Translations under genes and position numbers: made by a program
Shown here: one piece after another, positions 3,052 to 23,427 of the stretch
Layout: every line of letters begins with the position of its first letter
How positions within the stretch are numbered: the stretch's first letter is position 1
NCBI GenBank assembly: GCA_009840945.1
Contig: VXMU01000052.1
Location: 6,885 to 70,884 of the forward strand
DNA: 64,000 bases
Origin: Chloroflexota bacterium
GTDB lineage: Bacteria; Chloroflexota; Dehalococcoidia; UBA2979
Direction of reading: 5' to 3'
The notes under the pieces: generated by a model
The model's database searches: none
Seen by the model: only the letters and a program-made list of their open reading frames with translations
What the model was told of the DNA's origin: nothing

Positions 3052-3127
3052 AGGAGTGTAGCTCAGCTGGAAGAGCAGCGGTCTCCAAAACCGCAGGTCG
3101 GGGGTTCGAGTCCCTCCACTCCTGCCA
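3052..3127 (+). tRNA. tRNA-Trp (anticodon CCA)
   Basis: Manual cloverleaf: acceptor AGGAGTG/CACTCCT, D arm GCTC..GAGC, anticodon stem GCGGT/ACCGC with loop CTCCAAA, T arm GGGGG-TTCGAGT-CCCTC, discriminator G, encoded CCA. Confidence 0.9.
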
Positions 3128-3137
3128 GCAACCACTC

Positions 3138-3224
3138 GCCGAGGTGGTGGAATTGGCAGACACGCCGTCTTGAGGGGGCGGTGCCCGTAAGGGCGTATGA
3201 GTTCGAGTCTCATCCTCGGCACCA
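3138..3224 (+). tRNA. tRNA-Leu (anticodon GAG), long variable arm
   Basis: Acceptor GCCGAGG/CCTCGGC, anticodon stem CCGTC/GGCGG with loop TTGAGGG, long variable arm, T arm ATGAG-TTCGAGT-CTCAT, discriminator A, CCA. 87 nt. Confidence 0.85.
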
Positions 3225-3335
3225 GCAATCACACCGATCGCGCCCCGCACATGCGGGGCGCACGGCCATCCGGGGCGTCGAGGCCCGCCGCCGCGCTGGA
3301 ATCCGCAGCGCGCAACCGCGACAATCGATGTCCGG

Positions 3336-3409
<74 letters not shown>

Positions 3410-4869: not shown

Positions 4870-5544
4870 ATGGTGATCACGCTCACCGACCTCATCGCGA
4901 ACCGGACACTCGCTCCCGGCATGGCTGCGCTCCTCGCGGCCGCGGTCGAGGAGCGCCGGTCTCTCCTCGTGGTCGCTATCCCGCGGAACGCGGGGAAGAC
5001 CACGCTGATGACGGCGGCGTTCGAGGAGCGCCCGGACGCGGTGCCGCTCCACATGCTCGGGCGGCGTCATGGGGAGTCGCTCGGCATACCGGAGGAGGGC
5101 GCACCACCGGGCTATCTCTCCATGTCCGAGATCGCGCCCCACCCGGTCACCGACAGCTACCTCTGGGGCGCCGACGTGCGTCGAATCTTCGAGGCCGCGC
5201 ACGAGCGCGGGCACGCGATCGCGACGGCGCTGCACGCGGACGGCATCGACTCGGCGTTCGAGGTGATCGCGGAGAACGGCGTCCCCGACGAGCACGCCTC
5301 TCTGATCGACGTGGTGGTCTACATCCGGCTCTTCGGCAGGTGGCAGGCTCCCGAGCGGCGCGCCGTCGAGACCATCCACGAGGTCGAGCGCGTCCGCGAC
5401 GGCGAGGTGGTCGCGCGCCTCACCCACCGCTGGGATGAAGCGACCGACCGGTTCGAGACGGCAGACGCCCCGACGTCCGTCTCGCCCGAGGCCTATGCCC
5501 GCCACCTCGCGCGATTCACCGAGGCAGCCGGCCGCGACGCCTGA
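4870..5544 (+). CDS. Small P-loop protein with a degenerate VirB11/CpaF (T2SS-E)-like ATPase core
   Basis: 224 aa. P-loop AIPRNAGKTTLMTAA. C-terminal segment TALHADGIDSAFEVIAENGVPDEHASLIDVVVYIRLFGRWQAPERRAVETIHEV resembles the CpaF/VirB11 TxHAns...D.vvql.r..dG.Rrv..I.Ev region. No recognisable Walker B/Asp box. Confidence 0.5.
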   Translation: MVITLTDLIANRTLAPGMAALLAAAVEERRSLLVVAIPRNAGKTTLMTAAFEERPDAVPLHMLGRRHGESLGIPEEGAPPGYLSMSEIAPHPVTDSYLWGADVRRIFEAAHERGHAIATALHADGIDSAFEVIAENGVPDEHASLIDVVVYIRLFGRWQAPERRAVETIHEVERVRDGEVVARLTHRWDEATDRFETADAPTSVSPEAYARHLARFTEAAGRDA

Positions 5545-7026: not shown

Positions 7027-7187
7027 CCCCCTCACCCCGCTCTATCCGGCTCCCTCTCCTGCACTGCGGGAGAGGGTTGGGGTGAGGGTCCGGCGGGCGT
7101 GCAGGTGCAGGTCAGGCGAGGGCAGACCAGACCCCCTCACCCTCGCCCTCTCCCCCGCAGACGGGGGCGAGGGGATCGGAGTCAGAG
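7027..7187. repeat. Composite REP/MITE-like hairpin repeat: A-type unit (7027-7095) plus B-type unit (7123-7187)
   Basis: A-type palindrome ccctctcc-tgcactgc-gggagagg flanked by cccctcacccc/ggggtgaggg. B-type hairpin ccctctcccccg-cagac-gggggcgaggg. Homologous copies at 23134-23427 and 38318-38380. Lies between convergent gene 3' ends and overlaps the ACT-gene stop codon. Confidence 0.7.
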
Positions 7188-7574
7188 CATCGAGTCCTCG
7201 TCCACCACGGAGCGGGCGCGGTCCAGGTCGTCGGCGCTGAGGGCGATCGTCGCGTGGCCGCCGTGGCGGTTGAGGATGTGCATGCTCTGGATGTTCACCC
7301 CGGCGTCGCGGAACTTCGCCGAGAGCTGCGCGAGCGCCCCCGGCTCGTCGACGAGGCGCACGATGAGCGCGTCGTCCGCCACGGCGCGGTAGCCCGCCGC
7401 CGAGAGCGCGAGGAGTGCCCGGTCGTCGTCGTCGGTCGTGATGACGACCATGCCGTGGTCGCCCACGCCCTCGGTGTCGAGCGACTGGATGTTGATGCCG
7501 CGCTCGGCGAGGGCGGCCGTGATGCCGGCGATCACGCCGACCTCGTTCTTGGTGCTCACGATGATGCGCTGCAT
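7182..7574 (-). CDS. ACT-domain protein (small-molecule-binding regulatory domain)
   Basis: 130 aa (MQRIIVSTKNEVGVIAGITAALAERGINIQSL...) with two ACT-like beta-alpha-beta-beta-alpha-beta halves. Lies immediately downstream of hdc on the same strand. Confidence 0.7.
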   Translation of the reverse strand: MQRIIVSTKNEVGVIAGITAALAERGINIQSLDTEGVGDHGMVVITTDDDDRALLALSAAGYRAVADDALIVRLVDEPGALAQLSAKFRDAGVNIQSMHILNRHGGHATIALSADDLDRARSVVDEDSML

Positions 7575-7603
7575 GGCGCCCCTCTCCGCCGCCGGCGGCG
7601 TGC

Positions 7604-8737
7604 TCAGGCGGGCTGCGCCACGGGGCCCGCGGCGACGAGTTCCTCGGCGAGCTGATCGATCTGGTCGCGCGTCACGTGCCCCATCGTGATGAGGTGCGCG
7701 ATGCCCTCGTAGGGCGCGAGCTGCCACTTCTCGATGATGTCCGCGGGCGGCCGCGGGAAGACGACGGTGGCCGAGTTCTTGTTGCGCCACGCCGGGATGC
7801 CCGCGCTGTTGAAGTGCTCGACGGCGTACGCCGCCACGTCGAGCATGCCGGCTACGAGCTGCGTGAAGCCCTCGATGCCGTACTGCTCCCAGGCCAGCCA
7901 CAGCATGAGCGGCGTGATCCCGTTCCGGGAGCCCGTCAGCGTCGTGTCCATCACGCCCACGTACTCGACCGAGCGCGCGATGCGGGCGACGTACTCGTTG
8001 CGCGTGAGCGCGACGCCGCAGGGGATGGGCGCGCCGATGAGCTTGTGGCCGCTGATGGAGATGCTGTCGAAGCCGTCCTCGAACGTGTGCGGCTGCGGGT
8101 CGTCGACGAACGGCAGGATCATGCCGCTCAACGCCGCGTCGCCGTGGATGTAGTGCCTCGTGACCGCGAGGTCGTCGAAGATCTCGCGCACGCGGCTCAC
8201 GTCGTCGACGGCGCCCTTCATGGTGGTGCCGATGTTGGCCATGAAGATCGCGGGCACGTCGCGGTTGATGCGGATCGACTCGCGGAGGTCGTCGTAGTCG
8301 ACCTCGCCGTTCTCCTGGCTCTTGATCATGATGTTGCGGGTCCTGAGGACGCGCGTGATCTTGAGGATGCTGTAGTGGGTGTCCTCGGAGAAGTAGACGA
8401 TGCCGTCCGGGAAGAGCTCGCGGGCGAGGAACATGCCGTACATGTTCCCCTCGGTCCCCCCGTTGGTGACGTAGCCCCACAGGTCCTCGCGGGGGAGCCG
8501 CATGAGGTCGCCGAAGCGACGGATCACCTCGCGTTCGATCTCGTGGGTGTTGGTGGCGAAGTTGCTGTCGTGGAACGGGTCGCCAACGTTGTTGACGTTG
8601 AAGCTCAGGAACGGCAGCAGCGCGGAGTAGTCGAAGTCCTGGTTCGTGGGGTAGCCGAGGAAGTGTCCCGCGAGGTCCTCGAACCTCGACTCCAACTCGT
8701 CCAGTCGCTGCCGGGTCGTGGCCTGCAACTCGGTCAT
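7604..8737 (-). CDS. hdc: Pyridoxal-dependent histidine decarboxylase (Gram-negative-type HDC, group II decarboxylase)
   Basis: 377 aa. Near-colinear match to enterobacterial/Vibrio HDC signatures: WGYVTNGGTEGNM, SEDTHYS, ANIGTTMKGAVDD, ALSGMILPFVDD, DSISISGHKLIGAPIPCG (PLP lysine), SRNGITPLMLW, AGIPAWRNKNSATVVFP. Start chosen at ATG 8737 (MTELQ...), preceded by GGAGG-N7. The upstream in-frame ATG at 8752 lacks an SD. Confidence 0.8.
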   Translation of the reverse strand: MTELQATTRQRLDELESRFEDLAGHFLGYPTNQDFDYSALLPFLSFNVNNVGDPFHDSNFATNTHEIEREVIRRFGDLMRLPREDLWGYVTNGGTEGNMYGMFLARELFPDGIVYFSEDTHYSILKITRVLRTRNIMIKSQENGEVDYDDLRESIRINRDVPAIFMANIGTTMKGAVDDVSRVREIFDDLAVTRHYIHGDAALSGMILPFVDDPQPHTFEDGFDSISISGHKLIGAPIPCGVALTRNEYVARIARSVEYVGVMDTTLTGSRNGITPLMLWLAWEQYGIEGFTQLVAGMLDVAAYAVEHFNSAGIPAWRNKNSATVVFPRPPADIIEKWQLAPYEGIAHLITMGHVTRDQIDQLAEELVAAGPVAQPA

Positions 8738-8841
8738 GGTGAGGCCTCCCATGTGCGGAAGGGCGGCTGCTCGATTGCGCCGTCTTCACCTATCAGGCTA
8801 TCGCCGGGAAGGGCCGGTTGCCTAGACTGGATGCCTAGCGG

Positions 8842-11447: not shown

Positions 11448-12659
11448 ATGACCGGCATCATGCCCCTGGACGACGTGCGCGTGCTGGACCTGTCGCGCTA
11501 CACGTCCGGGCCGTTCTGCACCCGCGTCCTCGGCGACTACGGCGCCGACGTGATTAAGATCGAGCAGCCCGGGACGGGCGACCCCGCTCGCGCGCTCCCT
11601 CCGTTCTACCAGGACGAGCCCGGCCTCGAACGCAGCGGCATCTTCCTGTTCCTCAACACCAACAAGCGCAGCGTGACGCTCGACCTCAAGAGCGAGCGGG
11701 GGCGTGAGATCGCGCTCGAGCTCGCCGCGAGCTCGCAGGTGGTGATCGAGAACTTCGCGCCCGGGACGCTCGACCGCCTCGGGCTCGGCTTCGACGCACT
11801 GCGCGCGGTGAACCCCGGCATCGTGCTGACCTCGATCAGCAACTTCGGGCAGACCGGCCCCTACCGCGACTGGCAGGGCACCGACCTGACGCTGCTGGCC
11901 ATGGGCAACATGCAGGGCACCGGCGACACCGACCACGAGCCGCTCAAGACCGCCGGCCACCACGCCACGTACTACCCGGGCTACGTGGCCGCCCTGGCGA
12001 CCTCGATGGGCCTGATGACCGCCGAGCTGACCGGCGAGGGGGAGCACCTGGACATCAGCATCTTCGAGACGCACTCGCACTCCGTCGACGGCCGGCTCGG
12101 CCGCACGCTCGCGTACCAGTACAACGGGCGCCTCGTCGGCCGCTCGGGCATGGCGGGCGCCATCGGCAGCGGGATCTTCCCGTGCGCGGACGGCTACTTC
12201 GGGCTCAACGCGGGCGCCGGGCTGGTTCAGCGCATGATCCGCATGGTCGGCCGCGAGGACCTGCTGGAGCACCCGGACTGGTCGACCGTCGCCGAGCTGT
12301 CCAAGGCGGAACGCGCCATCGAGTTCCAGGGGATCCTCATCCCGTGGCTGCTCGAGCGCACCAAGGAAGAGGTGCGCACCGAGTGCGAGCGCTTCGGCGT
12401 CCTCGGCGGCCCGCTCAACACCATCGAGGACCTCTTCCAGGACCAGAACTTCCAGGCGCGGGAGTTCTTCCAGGAGATCGACCACCCGACCACCGGCCCC
12501 ATCCAGTACCCCGGCTTCCACGCGGTCCTGCACCGCGACGAGCCGATGCCGGAGCGCAGCCGCGCGCCGCTGCTGGGCGAACACACCGACGAGGTGCTCG
12601 GGGAGCTCGGCATCGAAGCCGGCGAACGCGAGGCGCTACGCGCCTCGGGCGTGATCTAG
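11448..12659 (+). CDS. Family III CoA-transferase (CaiB/BaiF family)
   Basis: MTGIMPLDDVRVLDLSRYTSGPFCTRVLGDYGADVIKIEQPGTGDPAR...: characteristic N-terminal region. 403 aa. Confidence 0.85.
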   Translation: MTGIMPLDDVRVLDLSRYTSGPFCTRVLGDYGADVIKIEQPGTGDPARALPPFYQDEPGLERSGIFLFLNTNKRSVTLDLKSERGREIALELAASSQVVIENFAPGTLDRLGLGFDALRAVNPGIVLTSISNFGQTGPYRDWQGTDLTLLAMGNMQGTGDTDHEPLKTAGHHATYYPGYVAALATSMGLMTAELTGEGEHLDISIFETHSHSVDGRLGRTLAYQYNGRLVGRSGMAGAIGSGIFPCADGYFGLNAGAGLVQRMIRMVGREDLLEHPDWSTVAELSKAERAIEFQGILIPWLLERTKEEVRTECERFGVLGGPLNTIEDLFQDQNFQAREFFQEIDHPTTGPIQYPGFHAVLHRDEPMPERSRAPLLGEHTDEVLGELGIEAGEREALRASGVI

Positions 12660-12674
12660 CAGGGGAGGAGCGCC

Positions 12675-13997
12675 ATGACGTCACCAGCATCCAACGGCAA
12701 GCGGCTCCCCCTGGAGGGCGTGCGCATCCTGGACTTCACCGTCGTCTGGGCCGGCCCCTACTGCACGATGCAGCTCGCGGACTGGGGCGCGGAGGTGATC
12801 CGCGTCGAGTCGGTGCACCACTTCGCGCCGCAGACGCGCGGACTGATCGCCCGCCCGCCGCAGGAGTTCGCCGAGAACAGCGCGAACCAGGGCGGCGGCT
12901 ACCCGGACGACCTCCTGGGCGAGCGCCCGTGGAACCGCGGCCCCTACTTCAACAACCACGGCCGCAACAAGCGCTCGGTCACCGTGCACCTCGGGACGCC
13001 CGAGGGGCAGGCCGCGCTCGACCGGCTGATCGAGCACTCCGACGGGCTGATCGAGAACAACCTGCCGCCGAACATCGAGAAGCAGGGCATCACCTGGGAG
13101 CGCGTCTCCGCGGTCAACCCGCAGATGATCATGCTGCGCGTCCCGGCGTTCGGCATCGAGGGTCCCTACCGCGGCTACCGGACGTGGGGGAACCACATGG
13201 AGGCGCTGCTGGGTCACCCCGTGCTGCGCTCCTACCCGCAGCTCAGCCTGGACTACGCGCCCATGGCGGTGCCCTCGGACGCCGCGTCGGGGATCGGCGG
13301 TGCGCTCGCGTTCGCGATGGGCCTCCGCCAGCGCCGCAAGACGGGCAAGGGCCTGATGATCGAGGCCGCGACGGCGGAGAACTTCGTCCCGTTCCTCGGC
13401 GACTTCGTCATGGACTACAGCATGAACGGCCGCGTGCAGGAGCGGCTCGGAAACACCCACCCGACGATGGCGCCGCACAACGTCTACCCGTGCTTCGGCA
13501 CCGACCGCTGGATCGCCATCGCCGTGCGGTCCGAGGACGAGTGGGCGAGCCTCTGCAAGGTGATGCACCAGCTCGGCCTCGAGGACGACCCGCGCTTCGC
13601 GACGATGGAGTCGCGCCACGAGCACCGCGACGCGCTGGACGCGCGCATCGCCGAGTGGACGGCGATCAAGGACGCCTACTGGGTCATGGAGCGCCTCCAG
13701 ATCGAGGGCATCCCGGCGGGCGTCGCCATGCACGAGCGAGACGTGCTGGAGAACCGCCAGCACGGCGCCCGCGACTTCTGGCGCACCATCAGCCACCCGG
13801 AGGCGGGGACGCAGCGTCACGTCGGCCCGCTGTGGCGCACGACGGGCGACAACCCGGGGGAGGCCCGGCACGCACCGCGCCTGGGCGAGGACAACGACTA
13901 CGTCTACAAGGAGGTCATGGGCTACTCCGACGAGGAGTACGCCGACTTCGAGCGCATGGGCCACATCGGCATGGACTACGACCCCTCGGTAGCCTAG
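12675..13997 (+). CDS. Family III CoA-transferase (CaiB/BaiF family), second tandem copy
   Basis: LEGVRILDFTVVWAGPYCTMQLADWGAEVIRVES.... 440 aa, directly downstream of the first copy. Confidence 0.85.
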   Translation: MTSPASNGKRLPLEGVRILDFTVVWAGPYCTMQLADWGAEVIRVESVHHFAPQTRGLIARPPQEFAENSANQGGGYPDDLLGERPWNRGPYFNNHGRNKRSVTVHLGTPEGQAALDRLIEHSDGLIENNLPPNIEKQGITWERVSAVNPQMIMLRVPAFGIEGPYRGYRTWGNHMEALLGHPVLRSYPQLSLDYAPMAVPSDAASGIGGALAFAMGLRQRRKTGKGLMIEAATAENFVPFLGDFVMDYSMNGRVQERLGNTHPTMAPHNVYPCFGTDRWIAIAVRSEDEWASLCKVMHQLGLEDDPRFATMESRHEHRDALDARIAEWTAIKDAYWVMERLQIEGIPAGVAMHERDVLENRQHGARDFWRTISHPEAGTQRHVGPLWRTTGDNPGEARHAPRLGEDNDYVYKEVMGYSDEEYADFERMGHIGMDYDPSVA

Positions 13998-15292: not shown

Positions 15293-15847
15293 GTGACCGA
15301 TCGCGGCATCATCCTGTGGTTCACCGGCCTCTCCGGCGCCGGCAAATCGACCCTCGCCGAACAGCTCGCACCCGTCCTCTCGGCCCGAGGGCGCAACGTC
15401 GAGGTCCTCGACGGCGACGAAGTACGGACGAACCTCTCGAAGGGGCTCGGGTTCTCCAAGGAGGACCGCGACACCAACATCCGACGCATCGGCTACGTCG
15501 CGCGGCTGCTCTCGCGCAACGGCGTCGCCGTGATCACGGCGGCGATCTCGCCCTACGCAGCCATCCGCGACGAGGTGCGCGCGAGCATCGCCGACGAACC
15601 CTGCGAGTTCATCGAGATCCACGTCGACTGCTCGATCGAGGAGCTCACCCGCCGCGACGTGAAAGGCCTCTACGAGAAGGCGCTGCGCGGCGAGATCGAG
15701 AACTTCACCGGCATCTCCGACCCCTACGAGGCGCCCGAACACCCCGAGGTGCGCGTCAACTCCGAGACGCAGAACGAGGACGAGTCGCTGGGTGACATCG
15801 TCGGCTACCTCGAGTCCCGCGACCTGATCCGGGGAGACGCATCGTGA
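15293..15847 (+). CDS. cysC: Adenylyl-sulfate (APS) kinase
   Basis: P-loop FTGLSGAGKSTLA and full-length APS-kinase similarity. GTG start with AGGGAG upstream; the stop overlaps the sat start. Confidence 0.9.
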   Translation: MTDRGIILWFTGLSGAGKSTLAEQLAPVLSARGRNVEVLDGDEVRTNLSKGLGFSKEDRDTNIRRIGYVARLLSRNGVAVITAAISPYAAIRDEVRASIADEPCEFIEIHVDCSIEELTRRDVKGLYEKALRGEIENFTGISDPYEAPEHPEVRVNSETQNEDESLGDIVGYLESRDLIRGDAS

Positions 15848-17019
15848 GCCCCGACACCTCCCAGCTCGTCCCCCCGCACGGCGGTACGCTGCGCGAGCTG
15901 CTCGCCACCGGCGAGGAGGCCGCCGCGCTCGTCGCGCAGGCGAGCGAGCTGCCGGTGCTGCGCCTCGGCGCACGCCAGGTCACCGACCTCGAGCTGCTCT
16001 CCGTGGGCGCGCTCAGCCCCCTCGGCGGCTTCATGGACGAGGCCGACTACCGCGCGGTGGTCGAGGGCATGTGCCTCGCCGACGGGACCGTGTGGAGCGT
16101 GCCCATCACCCTCCCCGTCACTGCCGGGCAGGCCGCCGACCTCGCCGGCAGGCAGATCGCGCTGGCCGCCGAGGACGGCACGCTCCTCGCCGTGATGGAC
16201 GCGGGCGAAGCCTACCCGTACGACCGTGAGCGCGAGGCGGAGAAGGTGTACCGCACCGCCGACCCCGCGCACCCGGGCGTCGAGGCGGTCAACGAGCAGG
16301 CCGAGCTGCTGCTCGGCGGGCCCGTCCGCGCCTTCGCGCTCCCCCCGGACCCGGAGTTCCCGGAGCACCGGCTGACCCCGGCGCAGACGCGCGCCGCGTT
16401 CGCCGAGCGCGGCTGGCGCACTGTCGTCGGATTCCAGACGCGCAACCCCGTGCACCGCGCCCACGAGTACCTCACCAAGGTCGCCCTCGAGGTCGTGGAC
16501 GGGCTGCTGCTGCACCCCCTCGTCGGTGAGACGAAGGAGGGCGACATCCCCGCCGACGTGCGGATGCAGTGCTACCAGGTGCTGCTGGATGGCTACTACG
16601 CGCAGGACCGCGTCGTGCTCTCCGTGCTCCCGGCGTCGATGCGCTACGCGGGGCCGCGCGAGGCGATCTTCCACGCGATCATGCGCCAGAACTACGGCTG
16701 CTCGCACTTCATCGTCGGCCGCGACCACGCCGGCGTGGGCGACTACTACGGCACGTACGACGCGCAGGAGATCTTCGACCAGCTCGAGCCGGGCGCGCTG
16801 GCGATCCAGCCGCTGAAGTTCGAGCACAGCTTCTTCTGCGTGCGCTGCGAAGGCATGGCCAGCTCGCACACCTGCCCACACGGCAACGACGTCCACGTCT
16901 TCCTGTCGGGCACGCGCGTGCGCGAGATGCTCGAGGCCGGCGAGGCCCCGCCTGCCGAGTTCACCCGCCCCGAGGTCGCCGAGGTGCTGATCGAGGCCTA
17001 CAGCGGGGGCGCGCCGTAG
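15844..17019 (+). CDS. sat: Sulfate adenylyltransferase (ATP sulfurylase, monomeric Sat type)
   Basis: QTRNPVHRAHEY and GRDHAGVGDYYG motifs. 391 aa. Confidence 0.9.
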   Translation: MSPDTSQLVPPHGGTLRELLATGEEAAALVAQASELPVLRLGARQVTDLELLSVGALSPLGGFMDEADYRAVVEGMCLADGTVWSVPITLPVTAGQAADLAGRQIALAAEDGTLLAVMDAGEAYPYDREREAEKVYRTADPAHPGVEAVNEQAELLLGGPVRAFALPPDPEFPEHRLTPAQTRAAFAERGWRTVVGFQTRNPVHRAHEYLTKVALEVVDGLLLHPLVGETKEGDIPADVRMQCYQVLLDGYYAQDRVVLSVLPASMRYAGPREAIFHAIMRQNYGCSHFIVGRDHAGVGDYYGTYDAQEIFDQLEPGALAIQPLKFEHSFFCVRCEGMASSHTCPHGNDVHVFLSGTRVREMLEAGEAPPAEFTRPEVAEVLIEAYSGGAP

Positions 17020-23133: not shown

Positions 23134-23427
23134 CGCCCCCTCCCCTCGACGCCTGCTCCGCGAGTCCGGCCCCCTCTCCCGCAGTGCGGGGGAGGGTTGG
23201 GGTGAGGGTCCGGCGAGCTCCTCGATGCGTCCATGCACCCCGCAGACCCCCCCTCACCGTCACCCTCTCCCCCGCCGTCGGGCTGGGTCGGAGAGCCGGG
23301 GCAAGCCCCCGCTCTCCTCGACGCGGGGATACCCCGCGGGTGAGGCGCGGGGATCAGAGTCCGGTTCCCTCTCCCGCATTGCGGGAGAGGGCGGAGGGTG
23401 AGGGTCCGGTAGGCTCCTCGATAGCTG
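23134..23427. repeat. Cluster of REP/MITE-like hairpin repeats (A-type, B-type, A-type)
   Basis: 23134-23230 and 23362-23425 match the A-type unit at 7027-7095 (ccctctcccgca[g/t]tgcggg[g]gagggttggggtgagggtccgg). 23238-23360 is a B-type-related unit with nested hairpins (gagagccgggg/cccccgctctc; cgcgggg-ata-ccccgcg). Lies between convergent gene ends. Confidence 0.7.

What the first reader, a model, noticed from the sequence alone, without database searches (positions are those of the whole stretch)
7182..8737. Gram-negative-type PLP histidine decarboxylase co-transcribed with an ACT-domain protein
The 377-aa ORF is colinear with the enterobacterial/Vibrio pyridoxal-dependent HDC and shares nearly every signature block. 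This enzyme type is usually found in Proteobacteria. There it is often tied to histamine-containing siderophore pathways such as anguibactin, acinetobactin and pseudomonine. Here there is no NRPS; it is followed by a small ACT-domain protein, a domain that binds amino acids or small ligands. Divergently across a tRNA-Gln there is a TPP enzyme and a metallophosphoesterase. The substrate (histidine or another amino acid) and the role of the ACT partner are unknown.
Basis: partly seen in the sequence, partly recalled or inferred. Interest (0 to 1): 0.5.

Follow-up and report, generated by a model that had tools for sequence, protein, structure and literature searches.

The report
Decarboxylase with dedicated ACT-domain partner
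A vitamin-B6-dependent amino-acid decarboxylase, labelled "histidine decarboxylase" by databases but probably with another or unproven substrate, is always paired (or, in cyanobacteria, fused) with a small amino-acid-sensing ACT protein, which points to an undescribed regulated two-part enzyme found in several bacterial phyla.

Summary
Window 7604-8737(-) encodes a 377-aa group II PLP decarboxylase. After a 29-nt gap, 7182-7574(-) encodes a 130-aa tandem-ACT protein.

The pairing is not incidental:
- 80 of 80 Chloroflexota genome loci found through the decarboxylase carry the ACT gene directly downstream.
- 78 of 78 evaluable metagenome loci found through the ACT protein carry the decarboxylase directly upstream.
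- No third gene is conserved.
- The two are fused into one ~555-aa protein in many cyanobacteria, including Stanieria PCC 7437 and Pleurocapsa PCC 7319.
- They overlap by 4 nt in a Pirellulales MAG.

The "histidine decarboxylase" label is not established:
- NCBIfam's HDC model scores proven serine and alanine decarboxylases (458 and 453 bits) about the same as this protein (481). True HDCs score 576-605.
- The protein lies outside the classical HDC clade (bootstrap 99).
- It lacks that clade's pocket motifs (YPE, NNCGDW). At the known specificity position it has Thr/Cys/Val instead.

All catalytic and PLP-binding residues are intact. The TPP enzyme and metallophosphoesterase neighbours are not conserved.

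Best reading: a catalytic subunit plus a dedicated ACT sensor subunit, with the substrate unresolved. I found no literature on it. It is a new variant of a known kind, of moderate interest.

The parts
7604..8737 (-). [quoted passage not shown] Schiff-base Lys232 lies in S229-G-H-K232. Also present are His121, Asp200, Thr172 and catalytic-loop Tyr259. The specificity position is Thr31, in GYPTNQDFDY.
   Evidence: PF00282 and NF002748 hits. PDB 7ERV E=7e-113 and 8JG7 E=7e-94. All 13 residues conserved across the eight group II decarboxylases compared in PMC11407765, and the PLP ligands, are conserved.
8745..8750 (-). Shine-Dalgarno-like GGGAGG, 7 nt upstream of the decarboxylase ATG at 8737.
   Evidence: Read from the sequence. 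It supports the 8737 start, as do the 377-aa gene calls on near-identical contigs.
7575..7603 (-). 29-nt intergenic spacer between the decarboxylase stop and the ACT start. It contains GGAGAGGGG at 7579-7587 as the ribosome-binding site for the ACT gene. This is operon architecture.
   Evidence: Sequence. Across 81 loci the median spacer is 17 nt, and seven loci have a 4-nt overlap.
7182..7574 (-). Partner subunit: a 130-aa stand-alone tandem-ACT protein. ACT1 covers about residues 4-59 and ACT2 about 70-123. Invariant motifs include E11-x-G13-V14-x-A16 in ACT1 and D76-E-P-G-A-L-A82 in ACT2.
   Evidence: Pfam ACT, ACT_AHAS_ss, ACT_4 and ACT_8 hits. The 37-sequence alignment has no gaps. The AF2 model has pLDDT 85.6 with two beta-alpha-beta-beta-alpha-beta units. 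Top Foldseek hits are BT0572 (2F06), YdjB, aspartokinase beta subunits and the AHAS small subunit.
7140..7173 (.). GC-rich perfect 9-bp inverted repeat (CCCTCGCCC / GGGCGAGGG, 16-nt loop), ending 9 nt downstream of the ACT stop codon. It may be the operon's terminator hairpin, but it has no T-run.
   Evidence: the repeat finder I5. The consensus terminator scan found nothing, so the function is inferred only.

Best explanation
The locus is a self-contained two-gene module. The first gene encodes a catalytically competent group II PLP amino-acid decarboxylase of the HDC/SerDC family. The second encodes a dedicated tandem-ACT protein. I propose that the ACT protein is the enzyme's regulatory (sensor) subunit. 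It would bind a small ligand, most likely an amino acid (the substrate, or an end product of the amine's pathway). It would then tune decarboxylase activity allosterically, as the ACT-ACT beta subunit does for aspartokinase and the ACT small subunit does for acetohydroxyacid synthase. In cyanobacteria the same two parts are one polypeptide.

Shown: gene structure, catalytic residues, obligate and reciprocal gene linkage, natural fusions, co-inheritance, and the separate clade with different pocket motifs.

Inferred: physical complex formation, ligand binding by the ACT pair, and the direction of regulation.

The substrate is not established. The pocket is not that of classical bacterial HDC (Glu), nor of serine decarboxylase (Tyr) or alanine decarboxylase (Phe). 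The specificity position is small or aliphatic (Cys>Thr>Val>Ala/Ile/Ser) and the catalytic loop is hydrophobic. This favours a medium-to-large neutral side chain; histidine is not excluded.
For: Catalytic competence:
- PF00282 hit.
- All 13 residues conserved across the eight group II decarboxylases compared in PMC11407765, and the PLP ligands, are conserved (residue list from PMC11407765).

Linkage:
- ACT lies directly downstream in 80/80 genome loci with 65-87% decarboxylase identity.
- The median spacer is 17 nt, with several 4-nt overlaps.
- Reverse search with the ACT profile: 78/78 evaluable metagenome loci have the decarboxylase directly upstream, down to 35% ACT identity.
- No other gene is conserved: at most 11/80 and at most 8/80 loci.
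- Pairwise identities of the two proteins correlate at r=0.86; the permutation maximum is 0.19.

Fusions:
- About 100 clusters of 549-595-aa decarboxylase-ACT proteins occur in cultured and uncultured cyanobacteria.
- The C-terminus of P0243 is 40% identical to the window ACT protein over its full length.
- A further fusion, P0516, groups with the Pirellulales-type sequences in the NJ tree.
- A Pirellulales MAG has the unfused pair with a 4-nt overlap.

Specificity of the linkage:
- Classical HDC (Salinivibrio P0255) sits in an NRPS siderophore cluster without ACT.
- Four neighbouring subfamilies have no ACT neighbour.

ACT fold: the closest structures are stand-alone tandem ACT proteins, then the regulatory subunits of aspartokinase and AHAS.

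Not classical HDC.
Against: - No biochemical data exist for any member. I found no paper on it, though the library is incomplete.
- A physical interaction was not modelled, because the tools give no multimer prediction or coordinates.
- ACT-like proteins can have non-allosteric roles.
- Monophyly of all ACT-linked lineages is unresolved in my NJ trees (11% bootstrap). The linkage could have arisen more than once or been lost in intervening lineages.
- The best PDB hit is still an HDC: 48% identity, against 43.5% to SerDC.
Confidence: 0.6

Rival explanations
1. It is a genuine histidine decarboxylase making histamine, as annotated. The ACT partner senses histidine (or histamine) so that histidine is decarboxylated only when it is plentiful.
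For: The best solved-structure hit is Photobacterium HDC, at 380 bits and 48% identity. NF002748 matches above its cutoff. Small residues after the Pro also occur in eukaryotic aromatic and histidine decarboxylases, so a small Thr/Cys is compatible with a bulky side chain (my knowledge of DDC and human HDC structures, not tested here). From unverified memory, the closest ACT structure, 2F06, was deposited with bound histidine. That is a lead only.
Against: NF002748 also accepts proven serine and alanine decarboxylases at 458 and 453 bits, while true HDCs score 576-605. The classical HDC clade has 99% bootstrap and excludes this protein; a joint clade gets 0%. The conserved YPE, NNCGDW and DYISAHDKT segments are all replaced. 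Glu is never seen at the specificity position in 201 + 66 clade members. There is no NRPS, histidine/histamine antiporter or hisRS-type context.
Confidence: 0.25
2. It is a bacterial serine (or alanine) decarboxylase of the plant type, making ethanolamine or ethylamine.
For: It is 43.5% identical to AtSerDC. The N-terminal motif YPxN.DFDY and NN[VL]GDPF resemble SerDC more than HDC.
Against: The specificity residue is Thr/Cys/Val/Ala, not Tyr (Ser) or Phe (Ala). In AtSerDC, Y111A/L/V/W abolish serine decarboxylation (PMC11407765). The plant SerDC clade is separate, with bootstrap 92. The catalytic loop differs. There is no Cys/His zinc-finger tail (sequence). Cyanobacteria that carry the fusion are not known to need ethanolamine lipids (general knowledge).
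Confidence: 0.06
3. The ACT protein is functionally tied to the decarboxylase but is not an allosteric ligand sensor. It could be a stabilising or assembly subunit, a product (amine) binding or handling protein, or a post-transcriptional regulator of the operon.
For: The linkage and fusion data prove association, not mechanism. Some tandem-ACT proteins, such as YdjB, have no known ligand.
Against: Both ACT units keep the canonical beta1-alpha1 loop motifs that form ligand sites in regulatory ACT domains: ExGV.A and DEPGALA, invariant in 37 sequences. The closest folds with known function are ligand-binding regulatory subunits.
Confidence: 0.1
4. The adjacency is incidental gene order with no functional link.
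For: None beyond the general possibility.
Against: Linkage is 80/80 and 78/78 reciprocal across at least three phyla with no other synteny, there are repeated gene fusions, and the pairwise identities correlate at r=0.86.
Confidence: 0.02

Closest known systems
Gram-negative PLP-dependent histidine decarboxylase (Morganella, Photobacterium, Vibrio type; PDB 7ERV; NCBIfam NF002748)
   Same: Same fold and family, about 377-386 aa, 48% identity. The PLP-binding S-G-H-K, His stack, Asp, and catalytic Tyr loop position are identical.
   Different: It is a separate clade. The pocket segments differ: YPE becomes YP[T/C/V], NNCGDW becomes NNVGDPF, and DYISAHDKT becomes EYVGV[LM]DTT. The genomic context is an ACT partner rather than a siderophore NRPS. 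Histidine activity is unproven.
Plant serine decarboxylase and tea alanine decarboxylase (AtSerDC 8JG7, CsAlaDC 8JIK)
   Same: Same subfamily, about 43% identity. They share the YPxN.DFDY and NN.GDPF motifs and score equally against the 'HDC' model.
   Different: The specificity residue is Tyr or Phe there, against Thr/Cys/Val here. The plant enzymes have an N-terminal extension and a C-terminal zinc finger that are absent here. No ACT partner is reported for the plant enzymes (PMC11407765).
Aspartokinase alpha2-beta2 (ACT-ACT beta regulatory subunit) and acetohydroxyacid synthase large plus small (ACT) subunits
   Same: Same architecture principle: a catalytic protein plus a small separately encoded ACT regulatory protein, which is fused in some lineages. 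The ACT model's Foldseek hits include these subunits, with probability 1.0.
   Different: The catalytic partner here is a group II PLP decarboxylase, for which I know of no described ACT subunit. Sequence identity to those ACT subunits is only about 20-25%. Ligand and effect are unknown.
Stand-alone tandem-ACT proteins of unknown function (BT0572, PDB 2F06; YdjB, PDB 9VP8)
   Same: They are the closest sequence and fold matches to the ACT protein. They are about 130-144 aa with two ACT units.
   Different: Identity is only 23-24% and TM is about 0.5, so the domain orientation differs. No decarboxylase linkage of those proteins was seen or tested here.

Membership tests
[quoted passage not shown] | Significant match to PF00282 and to solved members | tested here: met
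   PF00282 at 82.9 bits against a cutoff of 27. 7ERV E=7e-113 and 8JG7 E=7e-94.
[quoted passage not shown] | Schiff-base lysine in S-x-H-K, the PLP-stacking His, the Asp binding pyridine N1, the catalytic-loop Tyr, and the 13 residues conserved across the eight group II decarboxylases compared in PMC11407765 | tested here: met
   K232, H231, H121, D200, A202, T172, Y259, S270, G94/T95, and all 13 residues listed in PMC11407765, are conserved.
Classical bacterial histidine decarboxylase (EC 4.1.1.22, Morganella/Photobacterium type) | Score above the NCBIfam NF002748 equivalog cutoff | tested here: inconclusive
   480.6 bits against a cutoff of 305. Proven SerDC (458) and AlaDC (453) also pass, and true HDCs score 576-605. 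The criterion does not discriminate substrate.
Classical bacterial histidine decarboxylase (EC 4.1.1.22, Morganella/Photobacterium type) | Phylogenetic placement within the clade of characterised HDCs | tested here: not met
   In the NJ bootstrap the HDC clade (7ERV, Salinivibrio, Sinobacterium, P0311) has 99% support without the window clade. A joint clade has 0%.
Classical bacterial histidine decarboxylase (EC 4.1.1.22, Morganella/Photobacterium type) | Clade-specific pocket motifs GYPE and NNCGD[WH], and the loop DYISAHDKT | tested here: not met
   The window has GYPT, NNVGDPF and EYVGVMDTT. Of 201 clade members, none has Glu.
Classical bacterial histidine decarboxylase (EC 4.1.1.22, Morganella/Photobacterium type) | Context with a histamine-using siderophore NRPS or a histidine/histamine antiporter | tested here: not met
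   Only ACT is conserved next to it. The control HDC, P0255, sits in an NRPS cluster.
Classical bacterial histidine decarboxylase (EC 4.1.1.22, Morganella/Photobacterium type) | Decarboxylation of L-histidine to histamine | not testable with these tools
   This needs an enzyme assay.
Plant-type serine/alanine decarboxylase | Tyr (Ser) or Phe (Ala) at the AtSerDC-111 / CsAlaDC-106 position | tested here: not met
   The window has Thr31. The clade has C/T/V/A/I/S. The functional role of this position comes from PMC11407765.
Plant-type serine/alanine decarboxylase | C-terminal Cys3-His zinc finger | tested here: not met
   The window protein ends ...EELVAAGPVAQPA with no Cys in the tail.
ACT-domain regulatory subunit (aspartokinase beta / AHAS small-subunit type) | One or two ACT (beta-alpha-beta-beta-alpha-beta) domains | tested here: met
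   Pfam ACT in 2 stretches. The AF2 secondary structure shows two such units at pLDDT 85.6.
ACT-domain regulatory subunit (aspartokinase beta / AHAS small-subunit type) | Dedicated genetic coupling to, or fusion with, its catalytic partner | tested here: met
   80/80 and 78/78 loci, fusions in cyanobacteria and elsewhere.
ACT-domain regulatory subunit (aspartokinase beta / AHAS small-subunit type) | Binds an effector and changes the partner's activity | not testable with these tools
   This needs binding and kinetic experiments.

The most novel reading that the evidence does not exclude
The ACT-linked enzymes are a previously unrecognised, widespread family of allosterically controlled amino-acid decarboxylases. 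They occur in Chloroflexota (at least about 590 species-level genomes), in many cyanobacteria as fusions, and in Planctomycetota. Their substrate is not histidine. It might be, for example, a branched-chain, sulfur-containing, aromatic or hydroxy amino acid. If so, the proteins of this clade that databases now label 'histidine decarboxylase' are misnamed, and an unknown amine-producing step exists in these phyla.
Probability: 0.4. Interest if true: 0.65.

Novelty: new variant of a known kind. Interest (0 to 1): 0.5.

Why it matters
Group II PLP decarboxylases are normally described as unregulated homodimers, or as controlled by pH or transcription. A dedicated ACT sensor subunit, separate or fused, would add a new mode of control to this enzyme class. 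It would also add a new client to the ACT regulatory repertoire.

In practice, the result shows that the NCBIfam "histidine decarboxylase" equivalog does not separate histidine, serine and alanine decarboxylases. Histamine-production potential inferred from such annotations is therefore unreliable, for example in metagenomic surveys of Chloroflexota, SAR202 or cyanobacteria.

The module is present in cultured cyanobacteria (Stanieria cyanosphaera PCC 7437, Pleurocapsa PCC 7319), so the substrate and the regulation can be tested directly.

Tried and rejected
- Conserved third partner. I looked for a transporter, an amine-using enzyme or an NRPS by clustering all ORFs in 80 genome loci and 80 metagenome loci. 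None was found.
- Riboswitch or leader upstream. Rfam at gathering threshold found only tRNAs.
- Consensus promoter and terminator scan. It found nothing, which is uninformative for a 72%-GC Chloroflexota genome.
- tRNA-Gln adjacency. It is present only in 5 of 25 loci tested, all close relatives, so it is local synteny.
- Literature. Searches for Chloroflexi, SAR202 or cyanobacteria with HDC, and for ACT with decarboxylase, found nothing relevant. The MetDC structure paper (PMC7888583) is not held, so MetDC pocket residues could not be compared.
- Monophyly of all ACT-linked lineages. It is not resolved by the NJ bootstrap (11%), so I make no claim.
- His55 (GDPFH) as a substrate-binding residue. 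I rejected this because the position is variable (A/V/S/G/E/D) in the wider ACT-linked set.
- Structure-based pocket analysis.
Full report
**1. What is there**

The window is about 72% GC. Its proteins have closest relatives in Chloroflexota and Dehalococcoidia MAGs. It is 99.93% identical over 14.5 kb to an ENA metagenome scaffold.

On the minus strand, ATG 8737 to TGA 7604-7606 encodes a 377-aa protein. A GGGAGG sequence sits 7 nt upstream of the ATG. Twenty-nine nucleotides further on, after a GGAGAGGGG ribosome-binding site, ATG 7574 to stop 7182 encodes a 130-aa protein. Independent gene calls on near-identical contigs give the same 377-aa and 130-aa products.

The first protein matches Pfam PF00282 and NCBIfam NF002748. 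The second has two ACT domains. No ORF of 600 aa or more in the window carries NRPS domains.

**2. The enzyme is a competent PLP decarboxylase**

The residue list comes from the AtSerDC/CsAlaDC structural paper (PMC11407765). Mapped onto the window protein, every residue conserved across the eight group II decarboxylases compared there and every PLP ligand is present:
- Lys232 in S-G-H-K (Schiff base)
- His121 (ring stacking)
- Asp200 (N1 salt bridge)
- Ala202 and Thr172
- His231, Gly94/Thr95 and Ser270 (phosphate)
- catalytic-loop Tyr259

**3. Is it a histidine decarboxylase?**

The best solved relative is Photobacterium HDC (7ERV, 380 bits, 48% identity). Plant serine decarboxylase is close behind (8JG7, 318 bits, 43.5% identity).

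As a control, I scored proven enzymes against the NCBIfam "histidine decarboxylase" equivalog, whose cutoff is 305 bits:

| Protein | Bits |
|---|---|
| AtSerDC | 458 |
| CsAlaDC | 453 |
| Window protein | 481 |
| True HDCs | 576-605 |

The model hit therefore says "this family", not "histidine".

In NJ trees of the window protein, close relatives, 116 family representatives (50%-identity clusters from 1.84 billion proteins) and the PDB anchors:
- The Chloroflexota clade has 100% bootstrap.
- The classical HDC clade (7ERV, Salinivibrio, Sinobacterium, P0311) has 99%.
- The plant SerDC clade has 92%.
- A clade joining the window group with the HDCs is never recovered.

The residue after the conserved Tyr-Pro has been shown experimentally to set substrate choice in this subfamily. 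Tyr111 gives serine and Phe106 gives alanine. Y111A/L/V/W abolish serine decarboxylation (PMC11407765). Residues at this position by group:
- Classical HDCs have Glu (YPE).
- The window has Thr31.
- 201 members of its clade have Cys 148, Thr 29, Val 14, Ala 7, Gly 1 and Ser 1 (one more had no motif match).
- 66 more divergent ACT-linked enzymes have Cys 33, Val 13, Thr 9, Ile 5, Ser 4, Pro 1 and Ala 1.

Glu, Tyr and Phe are never seen. Two other segments also separate the groups:

| Segment | ACT-linked enzymes | Classical HDC | SerDC |
|---|---|---|---|
| NN.GD... | NN[VI]GDP[FY] | NNCGD[WH] | NNLGDPF |
| Loop after catalytic Tyr | EY[VI]Gx[LM]DTT | DYISAHDKT | EYLASRDAT |

By homology to dopa decarboxylase, the NN.GD... 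segment corresponds to the Ile101'/Phe103' pocket wall. That mapping is my own knowledge and was not tested here.

So histidine specificity is unproven. The classical recognition elements are absent, and so are the Ser and Ala determinants. A small or aliphatic specificity residue plus a hydrophobic loop suggests a medium-to-large neutral side chain. This is an inference only, and histidine is not excluded.

**4. The ACT pairing is the robust finding**

- *Forward test.* A degenerate-pattern scan of 185,579 species-representative genomes gave at least 591 relatives. The best 80 loci have 65-87% identity. All 80 carry the ACT gene directly downstream on the same strand. The median spacer is 17 nt and seven loci have 4-nt overlaps.
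- *Reverse test.* A scan of metagenome contigs with an ACT alignment returned 80 loci with 35-92% ACT identity. All 78 with enough upstream DNA have the decarboxylase immediately upstream.
- *No third partner.* In both sets, clustering of all flanking ORFs finds no other conserved gene: at most 11/80 and at most 8/80 loci. The TPP enzyme and metallophosphoesterase are not found next to the pair in any of the 80 genome loci; they recur only in near-identical metagenome contigs. The GNAT and enoyl-CoA hydratase side is shared only with the closest locus, L001. tRNA-Gln is shared with 5 of 25 loci.
- *Co-inheritance.* Pairwise identities of the two proteins across 78 loci correlate at r=0.86. The permutation maximum is 0.19.
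- *Fusions.* Two of the top family representatives are decarboxylase-ACT fusions (P0242 at 557 aa, P0243 at 532 aa). The C-terminus of P0243 is 40% identical to the window ACT protein over its full length. A search with P0242 found about 100 clusters of 549-595-aa fusions. They come from Stanieria cyanosphaera PCC 7437, Pleurocapsa PCC 7319, Merismopedia, Altericista, Lyngbya, Acaryochloridaceae and Waterburya, again without conserved neighbours.
- *Other phyla.* A Pirellulales MAG has the unfused pair overlapping by 4 nt. Another fusion, P0516, groups with those sequences in the NJ tree.
- *Controls.* A classical HDC (Salinivibrio) lies in an isochorismate/NRPS siderophore cluster with no ACT gene. 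Four neighbouring subfamilies have other neighbours and no ACT: a PALP enzyme, none, an AsnC regulator, and an MFS transporter.

The deep branching order, and therefore a single origin of the linkage, is not resolved.

**5. The ACT protein**

Thirty-seven homologues align over 130 columns without a gap. The invariant motifs are E11-x-G13-V14-x-A16 and D76-E-P-G-A-L-A82. These lie in the beta1-alpha1 loops, which form the ligand sites in regulatory ACT domains (established knowledge).

The AF2 model (pLDDT 85.6) shows two beta-alpha-beta-beta-alpha-beta units. Foldseek's best matches are the stand-alone tandem-ACT proteins BT0572 (2F06) and YdjB. Next come many aspartokinase regulatory beta subunits and the AHAS regulatory subunit.

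**6. Mechanism proposed**

I propose a catalytic PLP decarboxylase dimer with a dedicated tandem-ACT sensor subunit, fused in cyanobacteria. The sensor would bind an amino acid or related metabolite and set decarboxylase activity, by analogy with the aspartokinase alpha/beta and AHAS large/small subunit pairs.

My estimates:
- Functional coupling is close to certain, about 0.95.
- An allosteric sensor role is likely, about 0.6.
- The substrate is open: histidine about 0.25, serine or alanine about 0.06, other about 0.7.

**7. Novelty**

I found no description of an ACT partner for a group II decarboxylase, or of this clade, in the searchable literature. That library is incomplete. I rate the finding a new variant of a known kind. 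It is of moderate interest, has a clear experimental path, and carries a practical warning about "histidine decarboxylase" annotations.

Noticed in passing
window 7029-7173 and 23367-23391: A cluster of GC-rich inverted repeats of the CCCTC.CCC / GGG.GAGGG type fills the 186-nt gap between the convergent ACT and GNAT genes. A similar perfect palindrome, CCCTCTCCCGCATTGCGGGAGAGGG, lies at 23367-23391 (0 expected by chance). They may be REP-like elements or T-less terminator hairpins.
   Followed up: partly
L012 2259-2650; L061 about 7126-7291: In two loci the normally short decarboxylase-ACT spacer is expanded to 371 nt and 163 nt. In L012 the insert contains the same kind of CCCTCACCCC...GGGAGAGGGG palindromes, which suggests a small repeat element inserted inside the operon.
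   Followed up: no
L023 2552-4077 (+) and 8529-7004 (-): Two complete copies of the decarboxylase-ACT pair lie in inverted orientation about 3 kb apart in one MAG contig. This is either a real inverted duplication or an assembly artefact.
   Followed up: no
L020, L023, L027, L036: Four loci carrying the Chloroflexota-type pair (69-70% identity) come from MAGs titled 'Alphaproteobacteria bacterium'. This is either bin mislabelling or horizontal transfer.
   Followed up: no
P0241, P0249, P0409 (EukProt Picocystis sp.): Eukaryotic (green alga Picocystis) homologues of 593-666 aa score highest of all 50%-cluster representatives (616 bits, two matched stretches). This suggests a partly duplicated or extended decarboxylase in an alga.
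   Followed up: no
window about 3008 (tRNA-Trp/Leu/Cys cluster 3052-3409) versus L087 14567-15916: A near-identical contig, L087, has a 1.35-kb extra segment next to the tRNA-Trp/Leu/Cys cluster that the window lacks. It carries a 382-aa ORF without Pfam hits. This is a strain-level indel at a tRNA cluster.
   Followed up: no
window 4870-5544 (+): A 224-aa ORF with no Pfam match is conserved at 76% in L001 and is called as a gene in near-identical contigs. It sits between an MmgE/PrpD-family gene and an enoyl-CoA hydratase.
   Followed up: no
window 11448-13997 (+) and about 15293-17019: Two tandem family III CoA-transferase paralogues lie here. By mapping from the 99.9%-identical scaffold L088, APS kinase and ATP sulfurylase genes follow. 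The surroundings point to organic-acid CoA metabolism and sulfate activation, unrelated to the decarboxylase.
   Followed up: partly
L092 952-1407 (-); L090 4144-5250 (+); L093 2126-3409 (+): Other subfamilies of the same decarboxylase family have different recurring-looking partners. The Bacteroidota member has a divergent AsnC/Lrp regulator. P0248 has a PALP (tryptophan-synthase-beta-like) enzyme 6 nt downstream. P0250 has an overlapping MFS transporter. This hints that each subfamily has its own regulation or pathway.
   Followed up: no
NCBIfam NF002748: The curated 'equivalog' cutoff of 305 bits for histidine decarboxylase is passed by crystallographically and enzymatically proven serine and alanine decarboxylases. 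The model over-annotates HDC across the whole family.
   Followed up: yes
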